A model generated the notes under the pieces. The model did not search any database. It saw only the letters and a program-made list of their open reading frames with translations, and was not told the origin of the DNA. Below are positions 5,975 to 63,441 of a stretch of 64,000 nt of DNA, one piece after another (the first letter of the stretch is position 1; each line of letters starts with the position of its first letter). The DNA is from a virus (taxonomy: Duplodnaviria; Caudoviricetes): IMG/VR virus record IMGVR_UViG_3300045015_000053; one strand, given 5' to 3'. A program made the position numbers and the translations under genes.

Positions 5975-6412
5975 TTATTGCAATGGCCGTGCGGCAGGAC
6001 CACTGCTCTGGCCGATGAGTGTATTTAGGAAGACTTCGACCAACTCGTCCAAAGTTGTTTGATTGGTCTTCAACTCGCTCAGTCTCTTCGCGATGTATGT
6101 GACGATGCTGATGTTGGCCGGCTGAACCGCCGCTTGGAAAATGGCGACCGCGATCTTCGGAACCAGATTCCGTTCTCGCGCGGCTTCGTAAATGGCTTCA
6201 TAGGCGGCGTCAAGGCGGTTCTTGTCCTTCGGCACCTTACTCAGTCTCTTGACGAGTTCTTGTGCCGCCCCCATCGCTTTGCTGCTGGCCGAGGGTGGGG
6301 AATACGGTTTTTCGCCCGTGCCGGACGCAACACGGTCCAGTCTGCGTTCACCGCGACTCGGCACCAGACCGGCGAGGGCTTCGGCCACCCATTCGGTGAA
6401 CTTCGTTTCCAT
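5975..6412 (-). CDS. hypothetical protein with CTS-like N-terminus
   Basis: METKFTEWVAEA; GGAG RBS. Confidence 0.65.
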   Translation of the reverse strand: METKFTEWVAEALAGLVPSRGERRLDRVASGTGEKPYSPPSASSKAMGAAQELVKRLSKVPKDKNRLDAAYEAIYEAARERNLVPKIAVAIFQAAVQPANISIVTYIAKRLSELKTNQTTLDELVEVFLNTLIGQSSGPAARPLQ

Positions 6413-6458
6413 GCTTCTCCGGTAGAAATCTTTGTCTCGAAGGTATATACTTGCAACT

Positions 6459-6695
6459 ATGATTTCTTTCCGCGAGTATCTGGAACGCGACCGGCTCAAG
6501 AAGCACGTTCGCCACCACAACACGACAAAAGCGTTGGAAGACGCTTTTCCGGGTGAAGAACTGGACAAAGCCAAAAACGCGGTCTATACTAACTGGCGTG
6601 GAAGGAATAAGAGAGCCGCGATGAGGAAATTCATCGCGGACAAGGATACGAAGTGGGCGAATCTTTGGGGTAAGATCCGAAACGACGCTGACTGA
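6459..6695 (+). CDS. small basic protein with CTS-like N-terminus
   Basis: MISFREYLER; TATATA 6444-6449 upstream. Confidence 0.65.
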   Translation: MISFREYLERDRLKKHVRHHNTTKALEDAFPGEELDKAKNAVYTNWRGRNKRAAMRKFIADKDTKWANLWGKIRNDAD

Positions 6696-6701
6696 GTAAA
6701 T

Positions 6702-7079
6702 GGGGATGAAAAGGTTTCGATACGGTACGGAGGTTGTGAGTTGCACGCCGTGGTTGAGCGAAGGGCCACGTTAAAAATCGTTCAAACTCCATCTGGCAAA
6801 ACCAGTGGTCTGCGTCTGGTGGGCGACCGCCCGGCGCTCCGTCTCGCGGCTTGACCGCGACGGGTCCGCGAGGGACTTCAGATAACTCGCGGGTCCGCAA
6901 CACATCTGGATCGGTCATCAGGGTTGCTCCCTGACTGATGGCCGGAACTACCAGGGAAGCTTGCTCGTGACCTTGATGTCGGTAAGAGGTTACGGGGACT
7001 CCAGGCCCGACTAAGCGTGTGAACGAAATTTACAGTTGAAGTAGCGTACACGCGGGTTCGACTCCCGCCATCTCCACTA
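6702..7079 (+). ncRNA. ssrA: tmRNA, tag (A)GKTSGLRLVGDRPALRLAA
   Basis: 5' GGGGATGAAAAGGTTTCGA; 3' T-arm GCGGGTTCGACTCCCGC and CATCTCC-A with G3:U wobble; tag frame 6795-6854 ends LAA-TGA. Confidence 0.93.
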
Positions 7080-44769: not shown

Positions 44770-45210
44770 ATGCAACGGACGAGAATGACTTTCGCTCAGT
44801 TTGACGAACAGTTCATCGTAAAAGGTGGACTGTTCCTCGCCGTCCACTCGAAACTCGCAACCAACTGCAACGGCGACCGCGTCAAAATCTTCGAGATCGA
44901 TTTGATCTGCGAATGGCACGGCACAGACAAGCTCCGCTACTTCGCCGTCGAGTTCGACACCGAGAAGCAATACGACCGCATCGTAGTATACCTGAAACTC
45001 TGCGCCGACCTCCTTCGGGATTCGGTCCTTTCCAGCATCGATACGCTCGATGAGTTCGAGGCTGCCGGCCCGCGTACCGAAACACACGCATGCCTCGTTT
45101 GTGCGGGGCGGGGTCTGGTTTGGGAACGCATGGTAATTTCGGGGGTTGAAAGCAACGCTAGTTACTGCCCCAATTGCAGTGGCGCAGGCAAGACCACTCA
45201 CCCGGTGTAA
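44770..45210 (+). CDS. hypothetical protein, tandem paralog A (C-terminal CxxC...CxxC)
   Basis: Shares G.RV...D.ICEW...FDTE......YL...A.LL with the next gene. Confidence 0.65.
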   Translation: MQRTRMTFAQFDEQFIVKGGLFLAVHSKLATNCNGDRVKIFEIDLICEWHGTDKLRYFAVEFDTEKQYDRIVVYLKLCADLLRDSVLSSIDTLDEFEAAGPRTETHACLVCAGRGLVWERMVISGVESNASYCPNCSGAGKTTHPV

Positions 45211-45211
45211 A

Positions 45212-45652
45212 ATGAAACGCGACCGCATTGACTTCGCCACGTTCAAGGCGAATTTCATCGACCACCCGGACGGCTACTTCTCGGTCTATTCCAATCTGGA
45301 AGAGGACTACGAGGGGAACCGTGTCAGGTTACTGTTGCTCGACATGATCTGCGAGTGGCGGCTCGATGACGGGTGCATCAAGTTTGTCGAGGTGCCTTTC
45401 GACACCGAGGAAGAGTTTAAGCAACTCATCGCGTACCTCCGCGTTACCGCCGGTCTGCTCAATGCCGCGATTTTGGAGCGGATCGGCGAACTGTCCTATA
45501 CTGAGAGCAGACCCGAATCGGAGGCCGTTCCTTTCCCTCCGAGCAGTCTCCCGAAACTGTCCGACGAGAAGCTGGAACAGATCAGGAAACAGGTGGTCAG
45601 CTACGAGCTTTCGCTGCTCGCGGACGCTCTGCGTGAACAACGGGGAGAATGA
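45212..45652 (+). CDS. hypothetical protein, tandem paralog B
   Basis: As for paralog A. Confidence 0.65.
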   Translation: MKRDRIDFATFKANFIDHPDGYFSVYSNLEEDYEGNRVRLLLLDMICEWRLDDGCIKFVEVPFDTEEEFKQLIAYLRVTAGLLNAAILERIGELSYTESRPESEAVPFPPSSLPKLSDEKLEQIRKQVVSYELSLLADALREQRGE

Positions 45653-47135: not shown

Positions 47136-47230
47136 GGGGGAGTAGCTCAGAGGCCAGAGCGCAATCTAGGGAGCCGATTAAAAACCGGCAAACGTGATTG
47201 AGGTCGTTGGTTCGACTCCAACCTCCCCCA
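47136..47230 (+). ncRNA. tRNA-like RNA with 29-nt insert in place of the anticodon loop
   Basis: GGGGGAG/CTCCCCC-A acceptor, GCTC/GAGC D stem, CAATC/GATTG stem, GTTGG-TTCGACT-CCAAC T arm. Confidence 0.75.
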
Positions 47231-47635
47231 CTCGGCAGGATGTTAGTAGCGGACTACATTACACCAACACCAATGTGTCTCTACGATTTTTTGCCTGCCA
47301 CAACATGCCCCTGGTGGGGCGATCTGCCGGAATGGGCGACGGCAGACGTAACGCCAGGGGCTTCTTAAATCCAGAACGGGTCAGCGAAAAAGCACCAACG
47401 GCATGTAAGAGTGCCTACCCGTTCTGGACTCGTCTTCCGCCTTATCAGCGGAAGTGGTGGAGGCGACGGTGTCACCAACATCGCTGCCCTTCGGAGAGTA
47501 AACTCCGAGCGACTCCGGTCGCGAAACAAATCTGGTGGATCGCTGGCTACTGCCGGCCCCCGGAGTACAGTCTTCGGACGGGCTTGACCCGGAAACAAAA
47601 CTGATGTGGAGTTCCTGTAAAAAGGGGCTTCATAT

Positions 47636-47707: not shown

Positions 47708-47921
47708 CTGGCGATGGGGATATACCCCTCGCCTCTCACTCGCAACATTTTTGACCCGGTCGGGGTGCGATCCCCGTGGGTATGCAGTAGCGGGTGTACA
47801 TTCATGAAAAGCGGAGGGACGTAATGTCCGAACACTACCAGAGGGGACCGCCCCTGAGAATGTACTACCCCTATATGGCACCCATGTCCGCATACCGCAT
47901 CTGATCGCGCGGGCCGGGTGA

Positions 47922-58601: not shown

Positions 58602-58675
58602 GGCCCCGAAAGCTTTAGCTAGATGAGCAACAGCCTTTTAAGCTGTGGAAGAGGGTGCGATTCCCTACGGGGCTA
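58602..58675 (+). tRNA. tRNA-Lys(TTT), non-canonical (A8, T loop TGCGATT)
   Basis: ACAGC-CTTTTAA-GCTGT; GGCCCCG/CGGGGCT. Confidence 0.8.
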
Positions 58676-58681
58676 CTGAAT

Positions 58682-58754
58682 GGCCCGCTTGCTACAACGG
58701 AGAAGCGCCGAGCTTTTAACTCGGTCACGGTCGGTTCGATTCCGACGCGGGCTA
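58682..58754 (+). tRNA. tRNA-Lys(TTT)
   Basis: CCGAG-CTTTTAA-CTCGG; TTCGATT T loop. Confidence 0.9.
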
Positions 58755-58771
58755 CTCCAAATGACGTGTAA

Positions 58772-59036: not shown

Positions 59037-59108
59037 GGCCCGTTCGACTTCTGGCGAGGTCAGCAGTTTTTCAAACTGTTCAGGCGAGATCGAAACTCGC
59101 ACGGGTCA
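59037..59108 (+). tRNA. tRNA-Glu(TTC), non-canonical (T loop ATCGAAA)
   Basis: GGCCCGT/ACGGGTC; GCAGT-TTTTCAA-ACTGT; GCGAG/CTCGC. Confidence 0.75.
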
Positions 59109-59174
59109 CTGCACGACATTGCGGATGATAGAACCTGTCAAAAGGTTTAGCGCCTTCTGTAATGCGTGCTACAT

Positions 59175-59246
59175 GGCCCATTCGACTTCTAGTGAGGTCA
59201 CCTGTTTCTCGAACAGGTCAGGTCGGAGCGTAACCGACATGGGTCA
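59175..59246 (+). tRNA. tRNA-Glu(CTC), non-canonical (T loop AGCGTAA, no D-loop GG)
   Basis: GGCCCAT/ATGGGTC; CCTGT-TTCTCGA-ACAGG; GTCGG/CCGAC. Confidence 0.72.
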
Positions 59247-59265
59247 CTGACGGCTTCCAAAGAAT

Positions 59266-59336: not shown

Positions 59337-59393
59337 CTTGCAAGGTTCCATTTTTGTCTATAGTGTGTGGGGCAACTCAAACACGAGGCAATC

Positions 59394-59690
59394 ATGAAAC
59401 GGCAAAAGATCAAGCTCGAAGGCGGTCCACTGGATGGCGCGGAGATGGAGGTCGATGAACACATCTTCAAGTCCATCTTGGCTCAAGGTGGGCTGACGCT
59501 GGAGTGGCCCTTCGAGGAAGAAAAGTTCGATCCGATGAAGTTTACAGTCAGGGCGAACAAACCCGTGACGTATCAGGATCGAGGAATGTCGTCAATCGAT
59601 GATCAACCGATTTACGACTACGAATCGGCGTACCCTCTGTGGTACGAAAACGACAAGGACCAGATCATGGAAATGATCAAAGGTAATTAA
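59394..59690 (+). CDS. hypothetical protein inside the tRNA array
   Basis: GAGG RBS; IKLEGGPLDG motif. Confidence 0.65.
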   Translation: MKRQKIKLEGGPLDGAEMEVDEHIFKSILAQGGLTLEWPFEEEKFDPMKFTVRANKPVTYQDRGMSSIDDQPIYDYESAYPLWYENDKDQIMEMIKGN

Positions 59691-59699
59691 GTTGATCTT

Positions 59700-59832
59700 G
59701 TTGTGGTAGCTCAGTAGTAGAGCAGCGGACATGGCGAAAGCCTGTTGTCTCGCAATTTTTGCCCGCAAGGGATGCCTGATGGGATTACATTTTAATCCGC
59801 CGGTCGCAGGGTGCGAATCCTTGCCCACAACA
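59700..59832 (+). tRNA. tRNA-Lys(TTT) with 59-nt intron-like insert (59731-59789) between positions 32 and 33
   Basis: GTTGTGG/CCACAAC-A; GCGGA/TCCGC stem; removing 59731-59789 gives loop C-TTTTAA. Confidence 0.75.
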
Positions 59833-59838
59833 CTAGAC

Positions 59839-59913
59839 TGCCGAAGATTCAGTGCTGGTACTGTAGTTCGCCTTTGAAGCGAAATGTCTCAGGTTCGATT
59901 CCTGATTCGGCAA
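59839..59913 (+). tRNA. tRNA-Gln(TTG), non-canonical D region
   Basis: TTCGC-CTTTGAA-GCGAA; G8 and extra linker nt around CAGT/ACTG. Confidence 0.8.
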
Positions 59914-59918
59914 CTTAC

Positions 59919-60116: not shown

Positions 60117-60191
60117 TGTCGAGGATTGAGTGCTGGTACTCTTGTCTGCCTCTGAAGCAGAATGTCTCAGGTTCGATTCCTGACTCGACAA
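60117..60191 (+). tRNA. tRNA-Gln(CTG), non-canonical D region
   Basis: TCTGC-CTCTGAA-GCAGA; variable and T arm identical to the 59839 copy. Confidence 0.8.
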
Positions 60192-60244
60192 CTAGATTGG
60201 CTCTGAGATTTGTGTTTTTCAGAGCCGACTTGCTAAGATAGTGT

Positions 60245-60664
60245 ATGAAGAAATGCACTATTTGTCGGCAAGATAAGGCTCTTGCCGACTTCAACAAAAA
60301 GCCAAGTACAAAAGACGGATACCAGACAAAGTGTCGCAAGTGCAGTAAGCGTCTTGCAAAGGCGCGGTACTACGACAATCGCGACACTGAAATGAAAAGA
60401 ATCAAGGACCGTCAAGAAGATCTTGCTAATCGGTTTTATGAATTCAAGCGAACTTTGCGGTGCGAGTTTTGTCCTGAGACAACAGCTTGCTGTTTGGACT
60501 TCCATCACCGCGACCCGAACTCGAAGGAATTCAACATCGCATTCGCTTGTCGCCAGGGTTACTCTTGGGACAAGCTCATGGAGGAAGTGAATAAGTGTGT
60601 GGTGGCCTGTGCGAACTGTCACAGGAAGATACATCACGGTTTGATTGATTGCCCGCTCGTATAA
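60245..60664 (+). mobile_element. HNH endonuclease, stop codon inside the next tRNA
   Basis: CTIC...KDGYQTKCRKC; CEFC...LDFHH...KCVVACANCHRKIH. Confidence 0.88.
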
Positions 60665-60720
60665 CGGTAGTACAACTGACTCTGACTCAGTTAGTGAAGG
60701 TTCGACTCCTTCGTGGGCAT
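60650..60720 (+). tRNA. tRNA-Gln(CTG)
   Basis: ACTGA-CTCTGAC-TCAGT. Confidence 0.88.
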
Positions 60721-60725
60721 CTGAC

Positions 60726-60796
60726 TGAGGAATCATCTAATGGTAGGATGCAAGGCTTTGACCCTTGTCGTGGCGGTTCGAGTCCGTCTTCCTCAA
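60726..60796 (+). tRNA. tRNA-Gln(TTG)
   Basis: CAAGG-CTTTGAC-CCTTG. Confidence 0.9.
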
Positions 60797-60798
60797 CT

Positions 60799-61417: not shown

Positions 61418-61544
61418 CTCCGATTTTGAAGGCTCTGGTTCCCCTTGTGGGTGGTAAAAAGATCGCGCATAATCATCACGTTGCTGCGATTGGGCTGTAG
61501 AAATCGAAACCCCCAATGTCTGCGTAGCAGACAGGGAGTAAGTG

Positions 61545-62720
<1,176 letters not shown>

Positions 62721-62783: not shown

Positions 62784-62854
62784 GGCCCTATAGTCTAGTG
62801 GCAGGACGTAACCCTCTCAAGGTTAAGATTGGAGTTCGATTCTCCATAGGGTCA
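62784..62854 (+). tRNA. tRNA-Glu(CTC)
   Basis: TAACC-CTCTCAA-GGTTA; TTCGATT T loop. Confidence 0.9.
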
Positions 62855-62903
62855 CAGGCTCGACTACGTCCGACGCTCAGTTTTTCGGACGTTATAATTT
62901 GTC

Positions 62904-63329
62904 ATGGAGAAGACATGTTACAAGTGTAAACAATTGAAGCTTGCGGACGAGTTCTCGAAAGATACTCGGAGTAAAGATGGGTTGTGTGCGGCTTGTAGAG
63001 CTTGCCGAAGCGAGCTTAAAAAGCAGTATTACAACCGCGAACATGATGGCTTGAGGATCAAGCAGCTTGAGAAGCGTCGGAAGCTTCAGGATTGGGTTAG
63101 CACATTCAAGAAAGAGTGTAGTGTTTGCGGAGAGGATCATCCGGCTTGTTTGGATTTTCATCATGATGGCGAGAAGGAAGCAGGTATTGCCAACATGATC
63201 AATCGCAACAATATGACCGACGAAATGAGATCGAAGGTTTTGGCTGAGATCGCCAAATGCAAAGTCTTGTGTTCAAACTGTCACAGGAAGTTGCACTGGA
63301 AAGAAAGAAGAGAAGGCCCATTCGTCTAG
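62904..63329 (+). mobile_element. HNH endonuclease (paralog of 60245), stop codon inside the next tRNA
   Basis: CYKC...KDGLCAACRAC; CSVCGEDHPACLDFHH...KCKVLCSNCHRKLH; TATAAT plus 5 nt before ATG. Confidence 0.88.
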
Positions 63330-63385
63330 TGGTAGGACATCAGATTTTCACTCTGACAACCGGAGTTCAATTCTCCGATGGGTCA
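63315..63385 (+). tRNA. tRNA-Glu(TTC)
   Basis: TCAGA-TTTTCAC-TCTGA; TTCAATT T loop. Confidence 0.9.
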
Positions 63386-63441
63386 CTCAAAAGAAAGAAA
63401 CGAATCGGTATATACCCCACAGGCCGAACACAAGGGGTTTC

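What the first reader, a model, noticed from the sequence alone, without database searches (positions are those of the whole stretch)
59700..59832. tRNA-Lys(UUU) interrupted by a 59-nt structured insert at position 32/33
Seen: a complete cloverleaf whose anticodon loop holds a 59-nt insert (59731-59789). The insert has two GNRA hairpins (GGC-GAAA-GCC, CCC-GCAA-GGG) and can form an alternative GGATTA/TAATCC pairing over the anticodon. Precise removal restores C32-U33-UUU-A37-A38. Known: bacterial tRNA introns are group I (hundreds of nt, ending in G) or group II; archaeal ones need a bulge-helix-bulge. This insert is too short for group I, ends in A, and I could not build a BHB in this register. 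Inference: an unclassified small tRNA intron, or a protective cap hiding the anticodon from host nucleases until processing.
Basis: partly seen in the sequence, partly recalled or inferred. Interest (0 to 1): 0.85.

Follow-up and report, generated by a model that had tools for sequence, protein, structure and literature searches.

The report
Phage tRNA-shaped Y RNA, Ro60 handle
The "interrupted lysine tRNA" is real, but its 59-base insert is a copy of the docking site that bacterial and phage Y RNAs use to bind the Ro60 protein, which this giant lake-water phage also encodes, so the gene is most likely a tRNA-shaped Y RNA wired in an order not yet described and probably not a tRNA with a new kind of intron.

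Summary
Window 59700-59832 is a full cloverleaf, and deleting 59731-59789 gives a sequence ARAGORN calls tRNA-Lys(UUU).

The insert is not an orphan. It is the Ro60/Rsr-binding module of YrlA-type Y RNAs, here closed by a GCAA loop. The evidence:
- The same module sits in three other tRNA-shaped genes of this phage and in tRNA-shaped genes of two other huge phages.
- It stands alone as 60-78 nt hairpins between tRNA genes.
- It forms the terminal stem of RNAs that Rfam's YrlA model matches (44.6-56.1 bits, below its 69-bit gathering score) next to Ro60 genes in two further phages.
- Its main helix covaries.
- A covariance model built without this gene finds the insert at 43 bits (E 2e-7).
- The phage encodes a Ro60 orthologue.

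Group I, bulge-helix-bulge and known-ribozyme tests all fail. No RtcB or splicing endonuclease was found.

Best reading (about 0.6): an unspliced tRNA-order Y RNA that docks phage Ro60. Splicing (about 0.2) is not excluded, because the phage has Rnl1- and Rnl2-like ligases and no RNA data exist.

This is a new variant of a known kind. The scan had already noted tRNA-order Y RNAs in neighbouring windows of this genome and in other phages.

The parts
59700..59832 (+). Whole gene: 133-nt tRNA-Lys(UUU)-shaped RNA carrying a Y-RNA module (member 'A' of the family)
   Evidence: Sequence. ARAGORN calls tRNA-Lys only after removal of the insert. In a relative's contig the upstream flank changes exactly at 59699.
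59700..59706 (+). Acceptor stem, 5' strand (GTTGTGG)
   Evidence: Perfect 7-bp complement of 59825-59831. All seven tRNA-order family members have different acceptor stems: six pair perfectly, B has one U-U mismatch.
59709..59723 (+). D arm (GCTC-AGTAGTA-GAGC); the D loop has A in place of G18
   Evidence: The A18/G55 combination is shared with tRNA-Glu(CUC) at 59175.
59725..59730 (+). Anticodon stem 5' strand GCGGA plus C32
   Evidence: Pairs with 59796-59800.
59731..59789 (+). 59-nt insert: an extra GNRA hairpin plus a closed Ro60/Rsr-binding module of YrlA type
   Evidence: Model R1, built without this gene, scores 43.1 bits, E 2.2e-7. The insert alone folds into the family structure, -15.7 kcal/mol. 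It corresponds to Rfam YrlA consensus positions about 2-24 and 88-110.
59733..59742 (+). GGC-GAAA-GCC hairpin, specific to this member
   Evidence: Absent from members B-G.
59747..59751 (+). Helix Pa, 5' strand (GUCUC)
   Evidence: Pairs with 59781-59785. Family-wide covariation.
59752..59761 (+). Internal loop, 5' side, ending in the invariant UUG
   Evidence: Invariant columns. Matches 'aaAaAcUuG' of the Rfam YrlA consensus.
59762..59771 (+). Distal helix Php closed by GCAA (CCC-GCAA-GGG). In canonical YrlA this helix is formed by the RNA's 5' and 3' ends.
   Evidence: The open 4-9 bp versions in L008 and L052 covary.
59772..59780 (+). Internal loop, 3' side (AUGCCUGAU); together with the preceding stem it corresponds to the GNCGAAN0-1G / AAUGC Rsr-binding motif
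   Evidence: consensus cggCgaAUGC; PMC4201824. Here the sequence reads GGGAUGC.
59781..59785 (+). Helix Pa, 3' strand (GGGAU)
59786..59789 (+). UACA, end of the conserved GGGAUUACA block (the 'YUAY' of YrlA)
   Evidence: Invariant. YUAY is described in PMC4201824.
59790..59800 (+). U33-UUU-A37-A38 and anticodon stem 3' strand TCCGC
59806..59824 (+). T arm: 6-bp stem GCAGGG/CCTTGC, loop UGCGAAU (G55)
   Evidence: Strain variants at 59808 and 59809 keep the pairing.
59825..59832 (+). Acceptor stem 3' strand and discriminator A; no encoded CCA
47234..47299 (+). Stand-alone minimal Y RNA (module with open ends, no tRNA body), 3 nt after a tRNA 3' end
   Evidence: Sequence: GGCAGG...CCTGCC terminal stem, AUG..., CUACAUU, GUCUCUAC...UUUUUG. 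Only part of it was folded.
47734..47802 (+). Closed module with an extended distal hairpin, not inside a tRNA
   Evidence: R1 scores 22.7 bits, E 0.0085. Fold.

Best explanation
Window 59700-59832 encodes a tRNA-ordered Y RNA. It has the body of a lysine tRNA: an open 7-bp acceptor stem, D arm, T arm and a 5-bp anticodon stem. Its anticodon loop carries a closed copy of the Ro60/Rsr-binding module of YrlA-type Y RNAs.

Shown here:
- The module consists of helix Pa, an asymmetric ...UUG / AUGC... internal loop, a distal helix and then UACA. It is homologous to the terminal stem of YrlA RNAs.
- The module recurs in this genome inside other tRNA-shaped genes and on its own.
- Helix Pa covaries across the family.
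- The phage encodes a Ro60 orthologue.

Inferred:
- The gene is transcribed with the surrounding tRNA array and cut out by RNase P and 3'-end processing like its neighbours.
- It folds into an L shape.
- The insert stays in the mature RNA and docks phage Ro60.
- The tRNA-like body is then the effector end. It could tether Ro60, and perhaps a host exonuclease such as PNPase, to tRNA-binding partners. It could also act as a lysine-tRNA look-alike during infection.

Compared with published YrlA, the RNA is circularly permuted. The ends lie at the acceptor stem and the Ro60 helix is closed by a loop.
For: 1. A model built without this gene finds the insert. R1, built from six relatives (B-G), hits 59744-59791 at 43.1 bits, E 2.2e-7. 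Over 872 kb of other phage DNA it hits only family members and a Ro60-adjacent YrlA array.

2. Rfam YrlA (RF02553) matches the canonical-order relatives next to Ro60 genes. The scores are 56.1 and 44.6 bits in G002 and 56 and 49.2 bits in G003. The printed alignment shows the consensus cggCgaAUGC..ggGgaaCUAc at the 5' end and uucCcc..aaAaAcUuGucGccg at the 3' end. These are exactly the two strands of the insert.

3. Helix Pa covaries.
- The cognate partner is the best of 13 candidates in 10 of 13 members. Mean duplex energy is -9.4 versus -4.8 kcal/mol, permutation p about 5e-5.
- On a model-fitted alignment, 88.6% of cells are paired versus 71.8% after shuffling (0 of 500 shuffles as high).
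- 7 of 11 pairs change on both sides, and the slid controls score far lower.

4. The module exists without any tRNA exons. There are 60-78 nt hairpins at genome 83010-83069, 84403-84464, 84613-84673 and 85337-85414 and at window 47234-47299.

5. Ro60 is present.
- P0001 is 597 aa, encoded at genome 132725-134518.
- Pfam vWA_Ro60 scores 52.6 bits and TROVE 31.6 bits, both above cut-off.
- The PDB match to Rsr (2nvo) has E 5e-18.
- Homologues are found in G002, G003 and G004, E 1e-50 to 1e-71.
- In G004 two tRNA-order members lie about 230-400 nt downstream of the Ro60 gene on the same strand.

6. 'Restoration' of a canonical anticodon arm also occurs in canonical-order YrlA units, in one of which (L8-2) a UUCG loop closes the acceptor stem. 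L8-2 gives CUGAUAA and G3-a gives CUGUUAA. Restoration is therefore a property of the family's architecture and does not indicate splicing.

7. The RNA looks selected. Every family-invariant module position is kept. Strain variants at 59808 and 59809 keep T-stem pairing.

8. No RtcB or tRNA-splicing endonuclease was found in any of five genomes, three of them complete.
Against: - No RNA data exist, and binding to Ro60 was not tested.
- This member is the outlier of its family.
  - The module sits in the anticodon loop (32/33), whereas in the others it sits in the 5' strand of the anticodon stem (28/29 or 29/30).
  - Its Pa helix is among the weakest, and its cognate partner ranks only 8th of 13.
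  - The unconstrained MFE fold (-50.0 kcal/mol) uses other pairings. The family fold costs -41.2 kcal/mol, or -45.3 with only the cloverleaf enforced.
- The Rsr motif reads GGGAUGC here, where the published motif is GNCGAAN0-1G.
- Rfam YrlA does not match the gene.
- The gene lies 64 kb from the Ro60 gene, while published Y RNAs lie within about 4 kb.
- Exact removal gives a fully canonical Lys anticodon loop.
- The gene sits among deviant Lys/Glu/Gln tRNAs.
- The genome has Rnl1-like and Rnl2-like RNA ligases. All three of these last points would fit a spliced tRNA.
Confidence: 0.62

Rival explanations
1. Genuine pre-tRNA-Lys(UUU). The Y-RNA module acts as a removable intron or cap, perhaps held by Ro60. 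It would be excised by an unidentified endonuclease, or by self-cleavage, and the halves joined by the phage Rnl1- or Rnl2-like ligase to give a decoding tRNA.
For: - Exact removal of 59731-59789 gives a canonical C32-U33-UUU-A37-A38 loop on a perfect 5-bp stem, with a 7-bp acceptor stem and A73.
- Members E, F and A give Phe(GAA), Thr(GGU) and Lys(UUU) loops with U33 and a purine at 37.
- The gene lies in a run of deviant Lys/Glu/Gln tRNAs, the classes attacked by anticodon nucleases, and shares their A18/G55 peculiarity.
- G000 encodes Rnl2-like (55.3 bits) and T4 Rnl1-like (47.1 bits) ligases.
- Wang et al. [quoted passage not shown]
Against: - There is no splice signal of any known class. 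The insert has no bulge-helix-bulge, lacks group I size and a terminal G, and gives no ribozyme match in Rfam at E up to 10.
- No RtcB or EndA was found in five genomes. The complete genome G004 has tRNA-order members but no RNA ligase of the three families tested.
- The module occurs alone and in closed-acceptor RNAs that cannot become tRNAs.
- Members B and D would give C37 and member C gives no regular stem.
- The junction position relative to the conserved UUACAUU differs between this member and the others.
- An intact tRNA-Lys(UUU) already exists at 58682-58755.
Confidence: 0.2
2. Non-functional relic: a tRNA-Lys paralogue disrupted by recombination or gene conversion with a neighbouring Y-RNA gene. 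It would be carried along in the array without a role.
For: - The 3' 35 nt of the insert are 92% identical to member B while the 5' part is unrelated. This suggests a recent exchange.
- Pa is weak and the MFE fold prefers other pairings.
- The T and D loops are deviant.
- The insertion point is unique in the family.
Against: - All invariant module nucleotides are retained.
- The acceptor, D, anticodon and T stems are all intact.
- The two substitutions seen in related strains both preserve T-stem pairing.
- A18/G55 is a paired change at two positions that touch in tRNA, and it recurs in a neighbouring gene.
- The insert is unchanged in the contigs laid from four other runs.
Confidence: 0.12
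3. New small self-splicing or self-cleaving intron unrelated to Y RNAs.
For: The insert is compact and structured with two GNRA loops. No known intron class fits.
Against: - Homology of the insert to the YrlA Ro60-binding stem.
- Stand-alone copies without exons.
- Co-occurrence with Ro60 in four of five genomes.
- The conserved nucleotides are those of the protein-binding loop of Y RNAs.
Confidence: 0.04

Closest known systems
YrlA (Y RNA-like A; Rfam RF02553; Chen et al. 2014, PMC4201824; crystal structure in Wang et al. 2018, bioRxiv 10.1101/312249), partner of bacterial and phage Ro60/Rsr
   Same: - A tRNA-like D arm, T arm and acceptor-type stem are joined through the anticodon-stem position to a helix / asymmetric loop / helix module.
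- The module carries the AAUGC (GNCGAA-type) strand, the ...CUUG strand and a following YUAY.
- It is encoded in genomes that have Ro60.
- Several copies occur per genome, including in phages.
   Different: - Published YrlA has its 5' and 3' ends in the Ro60-binding stem, a loop-closed acceptor stem, and no anticodon loop.
- Here the ends are at a free 7-bp acceptor stem, as in a real tRNA.
- The Ro60 helix is closed by a GCAA loop.
- A complete Lys anticodon stem and loop sequence is kept around the module.
- The Rfam model does not match.
- The motif reads GGGAUGC.
- The gene is 64 kb from Ro60.
Deinococcus radiodurans Yrn1 and the RYPER complex (Ro60-Y RNA-PNPase); Thermus phage phiLo Ro60 with Yrl1/Yrl2 (PMC12135203)
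   Same: Y RNAs tether Ro60 to an effector. A phage Ro60 with phage-encoded Y RNAs has been shown to bind host PNPase in vitro. Yrn1 already shows that the order of the tRNA-like arms relative to the ends can differ between Y RNAs.
   Different: In Yrn1 the Ro60 stem takes the acceptor position. None of these RNAs has a free acceptor stem together with a closed Ro60 module. No PNPase link was tested here.
Permuted and intron-bearing tRNA genes of Cyanidioschyzon merolae and Archaea (Soma 2007; Chan 2011, as cited in bioRxiv 10.1101/312249)
   Same: The same RNA fold occurs in two gene orders within one family: 3' half, acceptor loop, 5' half, versus the normal order with an insert in the anticodon arm. 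Some canonical-order relatives even encode CCA plus a short linker in the acceptor loop (L8-1, G3-a).
   Different: Those genes depend on a bulge-helix-bulge motif, a splicing endonuclease and a ligase, and they yield decoding tRNAs. Here there is no BHB and no endonuclease gene, and the insert is a protein-docking module.
Group I introns in bacterial and phage tRNA anticodon loops (Rfam RF00028)
   Same: An insert in the anticodon loop of a phage or bacterial tRNA gene.
   Different: The insert is 59 nt where group I introns are at least about 200 nt. It has no terminal G, no P1-P9 core and no Rfam match.

Membership tests
YrlA-type Y RNA (RF02553) | Ro60/Rsr (TROVE + vWA) gene in the same genome | tested here: met
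   P0001 is encoded at genome 132725-134518. vWA_Ro60 scores 52.6 bits and TROVE 31.6 bits, both above cut-off. PDB 2nvo gives E 5e-18.
YrlA-type Y RNA (RF02553) | Ro60-binding module: helix, asymmetric internal loop, helix, with the 5'-strand motif GNCGAAN0-1G | tested here: inconclusive
   The architecture and the flanking conserved UUG, AUGC and YUAY are present and align to the Rfam consensus. The motif reads GGGAUGC here. Canonical-order relatives have GACGAAUG, GGCGAAUA and GGUGAAUG.
YrlA-type Y RNA (RF02553) | tRNA-like domain with D arm, T arm and acceptor-type stem | tested here: met
   Cloverleaf. T loop and D loop are deviant (G55, A18).
YrlA-type Y RNA (RF02553) | Gene order: 5' Ro60 strand, V, T arm, closed acceptor stem-loop, D arm, 3' Ro60 strand | tested here: not met
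   The order here is acceptor 5' strand, D arm, module (closed), T arm, acceptor 3' strand. It is the circular permutation of the published order.
YrlA-type Y RNA (RF02553) | Reaches the Rfam gathering score (69 bits) | tested here: not met
   No YrlA match at E up to 10 in 59600-59900. The best YrlA hit anywhere in the genome is 17.3 bits. Canonical-order relatives reach 44.6-56.1 bits.
YrlA-type Y RNA (RF02553) | Encoded within about 4 kb of Ro60 on the same strand | tested here: not met
   Same strand, but about 64 kb upstream of the Ro60 gene. The feature is met for tRNA-order members F and G in G004 (about 230-400 nt downstream).
YrlA-type Y RNA (RF02553) | Physically bound by Ro60 | not testable with these tools
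   Needs EMSA or co-immunoprecipitation.
Group I intron | Conserved P3-P8 core, terminal G, size of at least about 200 nt, match to RF00028 | tested here: not met
   The insert is 59 nt, ends in A, and gives no Rfam match at E up to 10.
Archaeal/eukaryal protein-spliced tRNA intron | Bulge-helix-bulge at the two junctions | tested here: not met
   By inspection, the intron 3' end (GAUGGGAUUACA) has no complement to the 5' exon end (GCGGAC) that could form the 4-bp central helix.
Archaeal/eukaryal protein-spliced tRNA intron | Splicing endonuclease (PF01974) and RtcB ligase available | tested here: not met
   Neither was found in G000-G004, of which three are complete. Host enzymes were not examined.
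Small self-cleaving ribozymes (hammerhead, twister, pistol, hatchet, HDV-like) | Match to the family covariance model | tested here: not met
   No match at E up to 10 in 59600-59900.
Functional elongator tRNA-Lys | Uninterrupted cloverleaf recognised by tRNA finders; G18/U55 and G19/C56 tertiary pairs | tested here: not met
   Not called by ARAGORN or Rfam as encoded. A18 and G55 replace G18 and U55. It is recognised only after in-silico removal of the insert.

The most novel reading that the evidence does not exclude
The Y-RNA module is a Ro60-guarded, removable cap on a phage tRNA-Lys(UUU), the classic target of host anticodon nucleases. The anticodon loop would be kept open and unrecognisable until an unknown endonuclease and the phage Rnl1/Rnl2-type ligases excise the module and reseal the loop. 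That would be a protein-docked tRNA intron of a kind not known in bacteria or phages.
Probability: 0.12. Interest if true: 0.9.

Novelty: new variant of a known kind. Interest (0 to 1): 0.55.

Why it matters
Y RNAs and Ro60 are conserved from bacteria to humans, yet it is still unknown what the tRNA-like end of bacterial Y RNAs binds.

A phage that keeps a Ro60 gene and about ten Y-module RNAs gives a natural series for asking that question. Four of those RNAs are wired as true tRNAs, with free acceptor ends and in some cases canonical anticodon loops. The series could show:
- what the tRNA mimicry is for;
- whether such RNAs can receive CCA or be charged;
- whether Ro60 is being aimed at tRNA-handling enzymes or at anti-phage nucleases. 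A Ro60-like protein of phage Bas63 was reported to counter the Ppl defence (PMC11482910).

There is also a practical consequence. 'tRNA genes with inserts' in phage arrays should be checked for Y-RNA modules before they are called introns or pseudogenes.

Tried and rejected
- ARAGORN with intron search (-i, 0-200 nt) does not find the gene.
- Rfam at gathering score and at E up to 10 gives nothing on the insert.
- blastn of the tRNA array against 50,697 phage records finds only ordinary tRNA matches.
- The first pattern (GCGTAAA...TTACATT...AGGACGAGG) hit four near-identical small contigs without tRNA features (L003-L006). This is probably chance (about one family expected) and was not resolved.
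- My early reading of L008 and L052 as 'permuted tRNA genes with a split intron' was replaced. These units are canonical-order YrlA.
- A sequence-only HMM built from six canonical-order modules joined in silico is weak. This gene ranks second in the genome at E 0.037, D at E 1 and B at E 2.8, and the top hit lies in coding sequence.
- The search for related loci with the Ro60 protein found no relative in viral contigs.
- Myxococcus phage Mx1: no closed module near its Ro60 gene with R1, and no Rfam YrlA match at E below 0.001. A descriptor scan did find two canonical-order units.
- The promoter and terminator scan of 57.8-61.5 kb was uninformative.
- No RNA holder was listed for the stretch in either run search. 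Only DNA contigs could be laid.
- After in-silico splicing, the gene is at most 70% identical to any tRNA of the window and 64% identical to the intact tRNA-Lys(UUU). It is therefore not a recent duplicate.

Full report
**What is there.** The window is part of a 188-kb IMG/VR virus record, estimated 37% complete. It is a huge lake-water phage with a tmRNA and a long tRNA array.

At 59700-59832 the sequence forms a complete cloverleaf:
- a 7-bp acceptor stem, a D arm, a 5-bp anticodon stem GCGGA/TCCGC, and a 6-bp T stem;
- the anticodon loop is split after C32 by 59 nt (59731-59789).

ARAGORN, with or without its intron option, does not call the gene, and neither does Rfam's tRNA model. After deletion of the 59 nt, ARAGORN calls tRNA-Lys(UUU) with loop CUUUUAA.

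**The insert is a member of a family.** A search of the phage's own record found the 3' 35 nt of the insert again, 92% identical, 4.5 kb downstream. Motif scans then showed three further tRNA-shaped genes in this genome with the same internal block:
- B at genome 73327-73454;
- C at 73993-74119;
- D at 122501-122624.

Pattern scans of IMG/VR added more:
- member E, in a 262-kb phage;
- members F and G, in a 184-kb phage;
- units in two other phages (L008, L052) in which the same block is split: its 3' strand lies upstream of a tRNA 3' half, an acceptor hairpin follows, then a tRNA 5' half, then the 5' strand of the block.

All 13 modules share one anatomy. Twelve of them also fold to it as their minimum-free-energy structure, the exception being the present gene. 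The anatomy is:
- a helix Pa of 5-11 bp;
- an asymmetric internal loop whose 5' side ends in UUG and whose 3' side begins (A)AUGC;
- a distal helix;
- UACAUU after Pa.

Pa covaries:
- The cognate partner is the best of 13 candidates in 10 of 13 members, with permutation p about 5e-5.
- On a model-fitted alignment, 88.6% of cells pair against 71.8% after shuffling.
- Seven of 11 pairs change on both sides, and the slid controls collapse.
- Caveat: that alignment was fitted to the structure being tested.

A covariance model built from B-G only finds the insert of the present gene at 43.1 bits, E 2.2e-7. In 872 kb of other phage DNA it finds only family members.

**What the module is.** I tested that suggestion here.

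The phage encodes a Ro60 orthologue:
- 597 aa, at genome 132725-134518;
- Pfam vWA_Ro60 52.6 bits and TROVE 31.6 bits, both above cut-off;
- PDB Rsr 2nvo at E 5e-18.

Homologues are present in three of the four other phages carrying the module, at E 1e-50 to 1e-71. The fourth record is only half complete.

Rfam's YrlA model matches the 'split' units of L008 and L052 at 44.6-56.1 bits. That is below the family's 69-bit gathering score, but the E-values are 4e-13 to 8e-10, and the units lie right beside the Ro60 genes. The printed alignment shows that the YrlA consensus ends (cggCgaAUGC..ggGgaaCUAc and uucCcc..aaAaAcUuGucGccg) are the two strands of my module.

Chen et al. 2014 (PMC4201824) place the Rsr-binding motif GNCGAAN0-1G and a conserved YUAY exactly there. 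The split units are therefore ordinary YrlA-type Y RNAs. The insert in the present gene is the same Ro60-binding stem, closed by a tetraloop.

**Decisive for 'module, not intron'.** The module also stands alone in this genome as 60-78 nt hairpins placed a few nucleotides after tRNA 3' ends:
- genome 83010-83069, 84403-84464, 84613-84673 and 85337-85414;
- window 47234-47299.

It also occurs as a closed copy outside any tRNA, at window 47734-47802 (22.7 bits).

In the 184-kb phage, the two tRNA-order members lie about 230-400 nt downstream of the Ro60 gene on the same strand. That is the classic position of Y RNA genes.

**Why restoration of the anticodon loop is not evidence of splicing.**
- In most members the module leaves the 5' strand of the anticodon stem after 2-3 bp. 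A 2-3 bp hairpin with a 7-nt loop follows it, so removing the module always rebuilds a 5-bp stem.
- This also happens in the canonical-order units: L8-2, whose acceptor stem is closed by UUCG and which therefore cannot be charged, gives an Ile-like CUGAUAA loop, and G3-a gives an Asn-like CUGUUAA loop.
- Members B and D would have C37, and member C gives no regular stem.
- The family therefore mimics a whole tRNA, anticodon arm included, with the Ro60 handle as a side branch.

**Tests of known intron classes.**
- There is no group I, group II or ribozyme match.
- There is no bulge-helix-bulge, by inspection.
- No RtcB or splicing endonuclease was found in five genomes, three of them complete.
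- The phage does have Rnl2-like and T4 Rnl1-like RNA ligases, so ligation capacity exists.

**How this member differs.**
- It is the outlier of the family. The module sits in the loop at 32/33, it has an extra GGC-GAAA-GCC hairpin, and its Pa is weak.
- The thermodynamic optimum (-50.0 kcal/mol) uses other pairings than the family fold (-41.2, or -45.3 with only the cloverleaf enforced).
- Against decay: it keeps every invariant module nucleotide.
- The two substitutions seen in related strains (59808 A>G, 59809 G>A) keep T-stem pairing.
- Its unusual A18/G55 pair recurs in the neighbouring deviant tRNA-Glu(CUC).
- In one relative the upstream flank changes exactly at 59699, which marks the gene's 5' edge.

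**Mechanism proposed.** Shown: homology of the insert to the YrlA Ro60-binding stem, covariation, presence of Ro60, and stand-alone copies. Inferred:
- the RNA is released from the tRNA array transcript by RNase P and 3'-end processing;
- it keeps its insert and binds phage Ro60 through it;
- it presents a lysine-tRNA-like body as the effector end.

What that end engages is unknown. Published leads are PNPase tethering (PMC12135203) and a Ro60-like protein of phage Bas63 that counters the Ppl defence (PMC11482910). The authors of the Bas63 work also suspected that some annotated tRNAs next to that gene are Y RNAs.

**Novelty.** Phage Ro60 and YrlA-type RNAs are known. Yrn1 shows that arm order can differ between Y RNAs. 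I found no paper describing Y RNAs with a free tRNA acceptor end and a loop-closed Ro60 stem. The verdict is a new variant of a known kind.

Other agents of this scan reached the same reading for neighbouring windows of this genome and for other phages. I reproduced B-D, Ro60 and the stand-alone hairpins independently before seeing the same-genome notes.

No RNA evidence could be obtained.

Noticed in passing
window 47136-47231: A 96-nt tRNA-shaped gene with normal acceptor, D and T arms and a stem CAATC/GATTG. Its 'anticodon loop' is 27 nt long and contains the hairpin GCCG-AUUAAAAAC-CGGC. ARAGORN calls it Ser(GGA), or, with the intron option, Pro(GGG) with a 22-nt intron. The insert is not the Y module.
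   Followed up: no
window 47234-47299 and 47734-47802: Two more Y-RNA modules in the window. The first is a stand-alone hairpin 3 nt after the gene above. The second is a closed module with an extended distal hairpin, preceded by another hairpin at 47710-47733 just after tRNA-Ile(AAU).
   Followed up: partly
window 59037-59247, 59839-59914, 60117-60192: Deviant tRNAs flank the gene. Glu(UUC) has T loop AUCGAAA. Glu(CUC) has T loop AGCGUAA and A18 (the same A18/G55 pair as the Lys-shaped gene), and both have 6-bp anticodon stems. There are also two 76-nt Gln genes with an odd D region. Canonical copies of the same anticodons lie at 60650-60797 and 62784-63386.
   Followed up: partly
window 61542-62720; 60245-60664; 62904-63329: A 392-aa ORF in the tRNA array matches a phage 'translation elongation factor' family (phrog_6880, E 2e-26). 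Two HNH endonuclease ORFs (phrog_2255) are interspersed among the tRNAs.
   Followed up: partly
window 6702-7079: Phage-encoded tmRNA (Rfam 113 bits). Myxococcus phage Mx1 has one too, in the same kind of array.
   Followed up: no
window 58603-58674: Rfam calls a weak tRNA (30.5 bits) that ARAGORN misses, directly upstream of tRNA-Lys(UUU) at 58682.
   Followed up: no
L008 about 6330-6480 (- strand); L052 about 6640-6770: Canonical-order YrlA units whose acceptor loop encodes discriminator + CCA + a short linker before a 7-bp 5' strand. They should be RNase P substrates, as reported for M. smegmatis YrlA. L052 holds a tandem array of at least five such units separated by U-rich spacers.
   Followed up: partly
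L157 8257-8378 and 8607-8710 (Myxococcus phage Mx1, OR576727.2 about 45171-45292 and 45521-45624): Two unannotated canonical-order Y-RNA-like units in the tRNA array of a cultured phage whose Ro60 is 41% identical to this phage's. The second is overlapped by an annotated 'hypothetical protein' CDS (WNM70101.1).
   Followed up: partly
window 59367-59690: A 107-aa ORF ends 9 nt before the gene and has no PHROG match. In a related strain (run X9) a tRNA 3' end abuts position 59699 in its place.
   Followed up: no
L003-L006: Four near-identical small viral contigs match GCGTAAA...UUUACAUU...AGGACGAGG and also share UAUUGCC, but have no tRNA features around the match. Chance or a distant relative; unresolved.
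   Followed up: no
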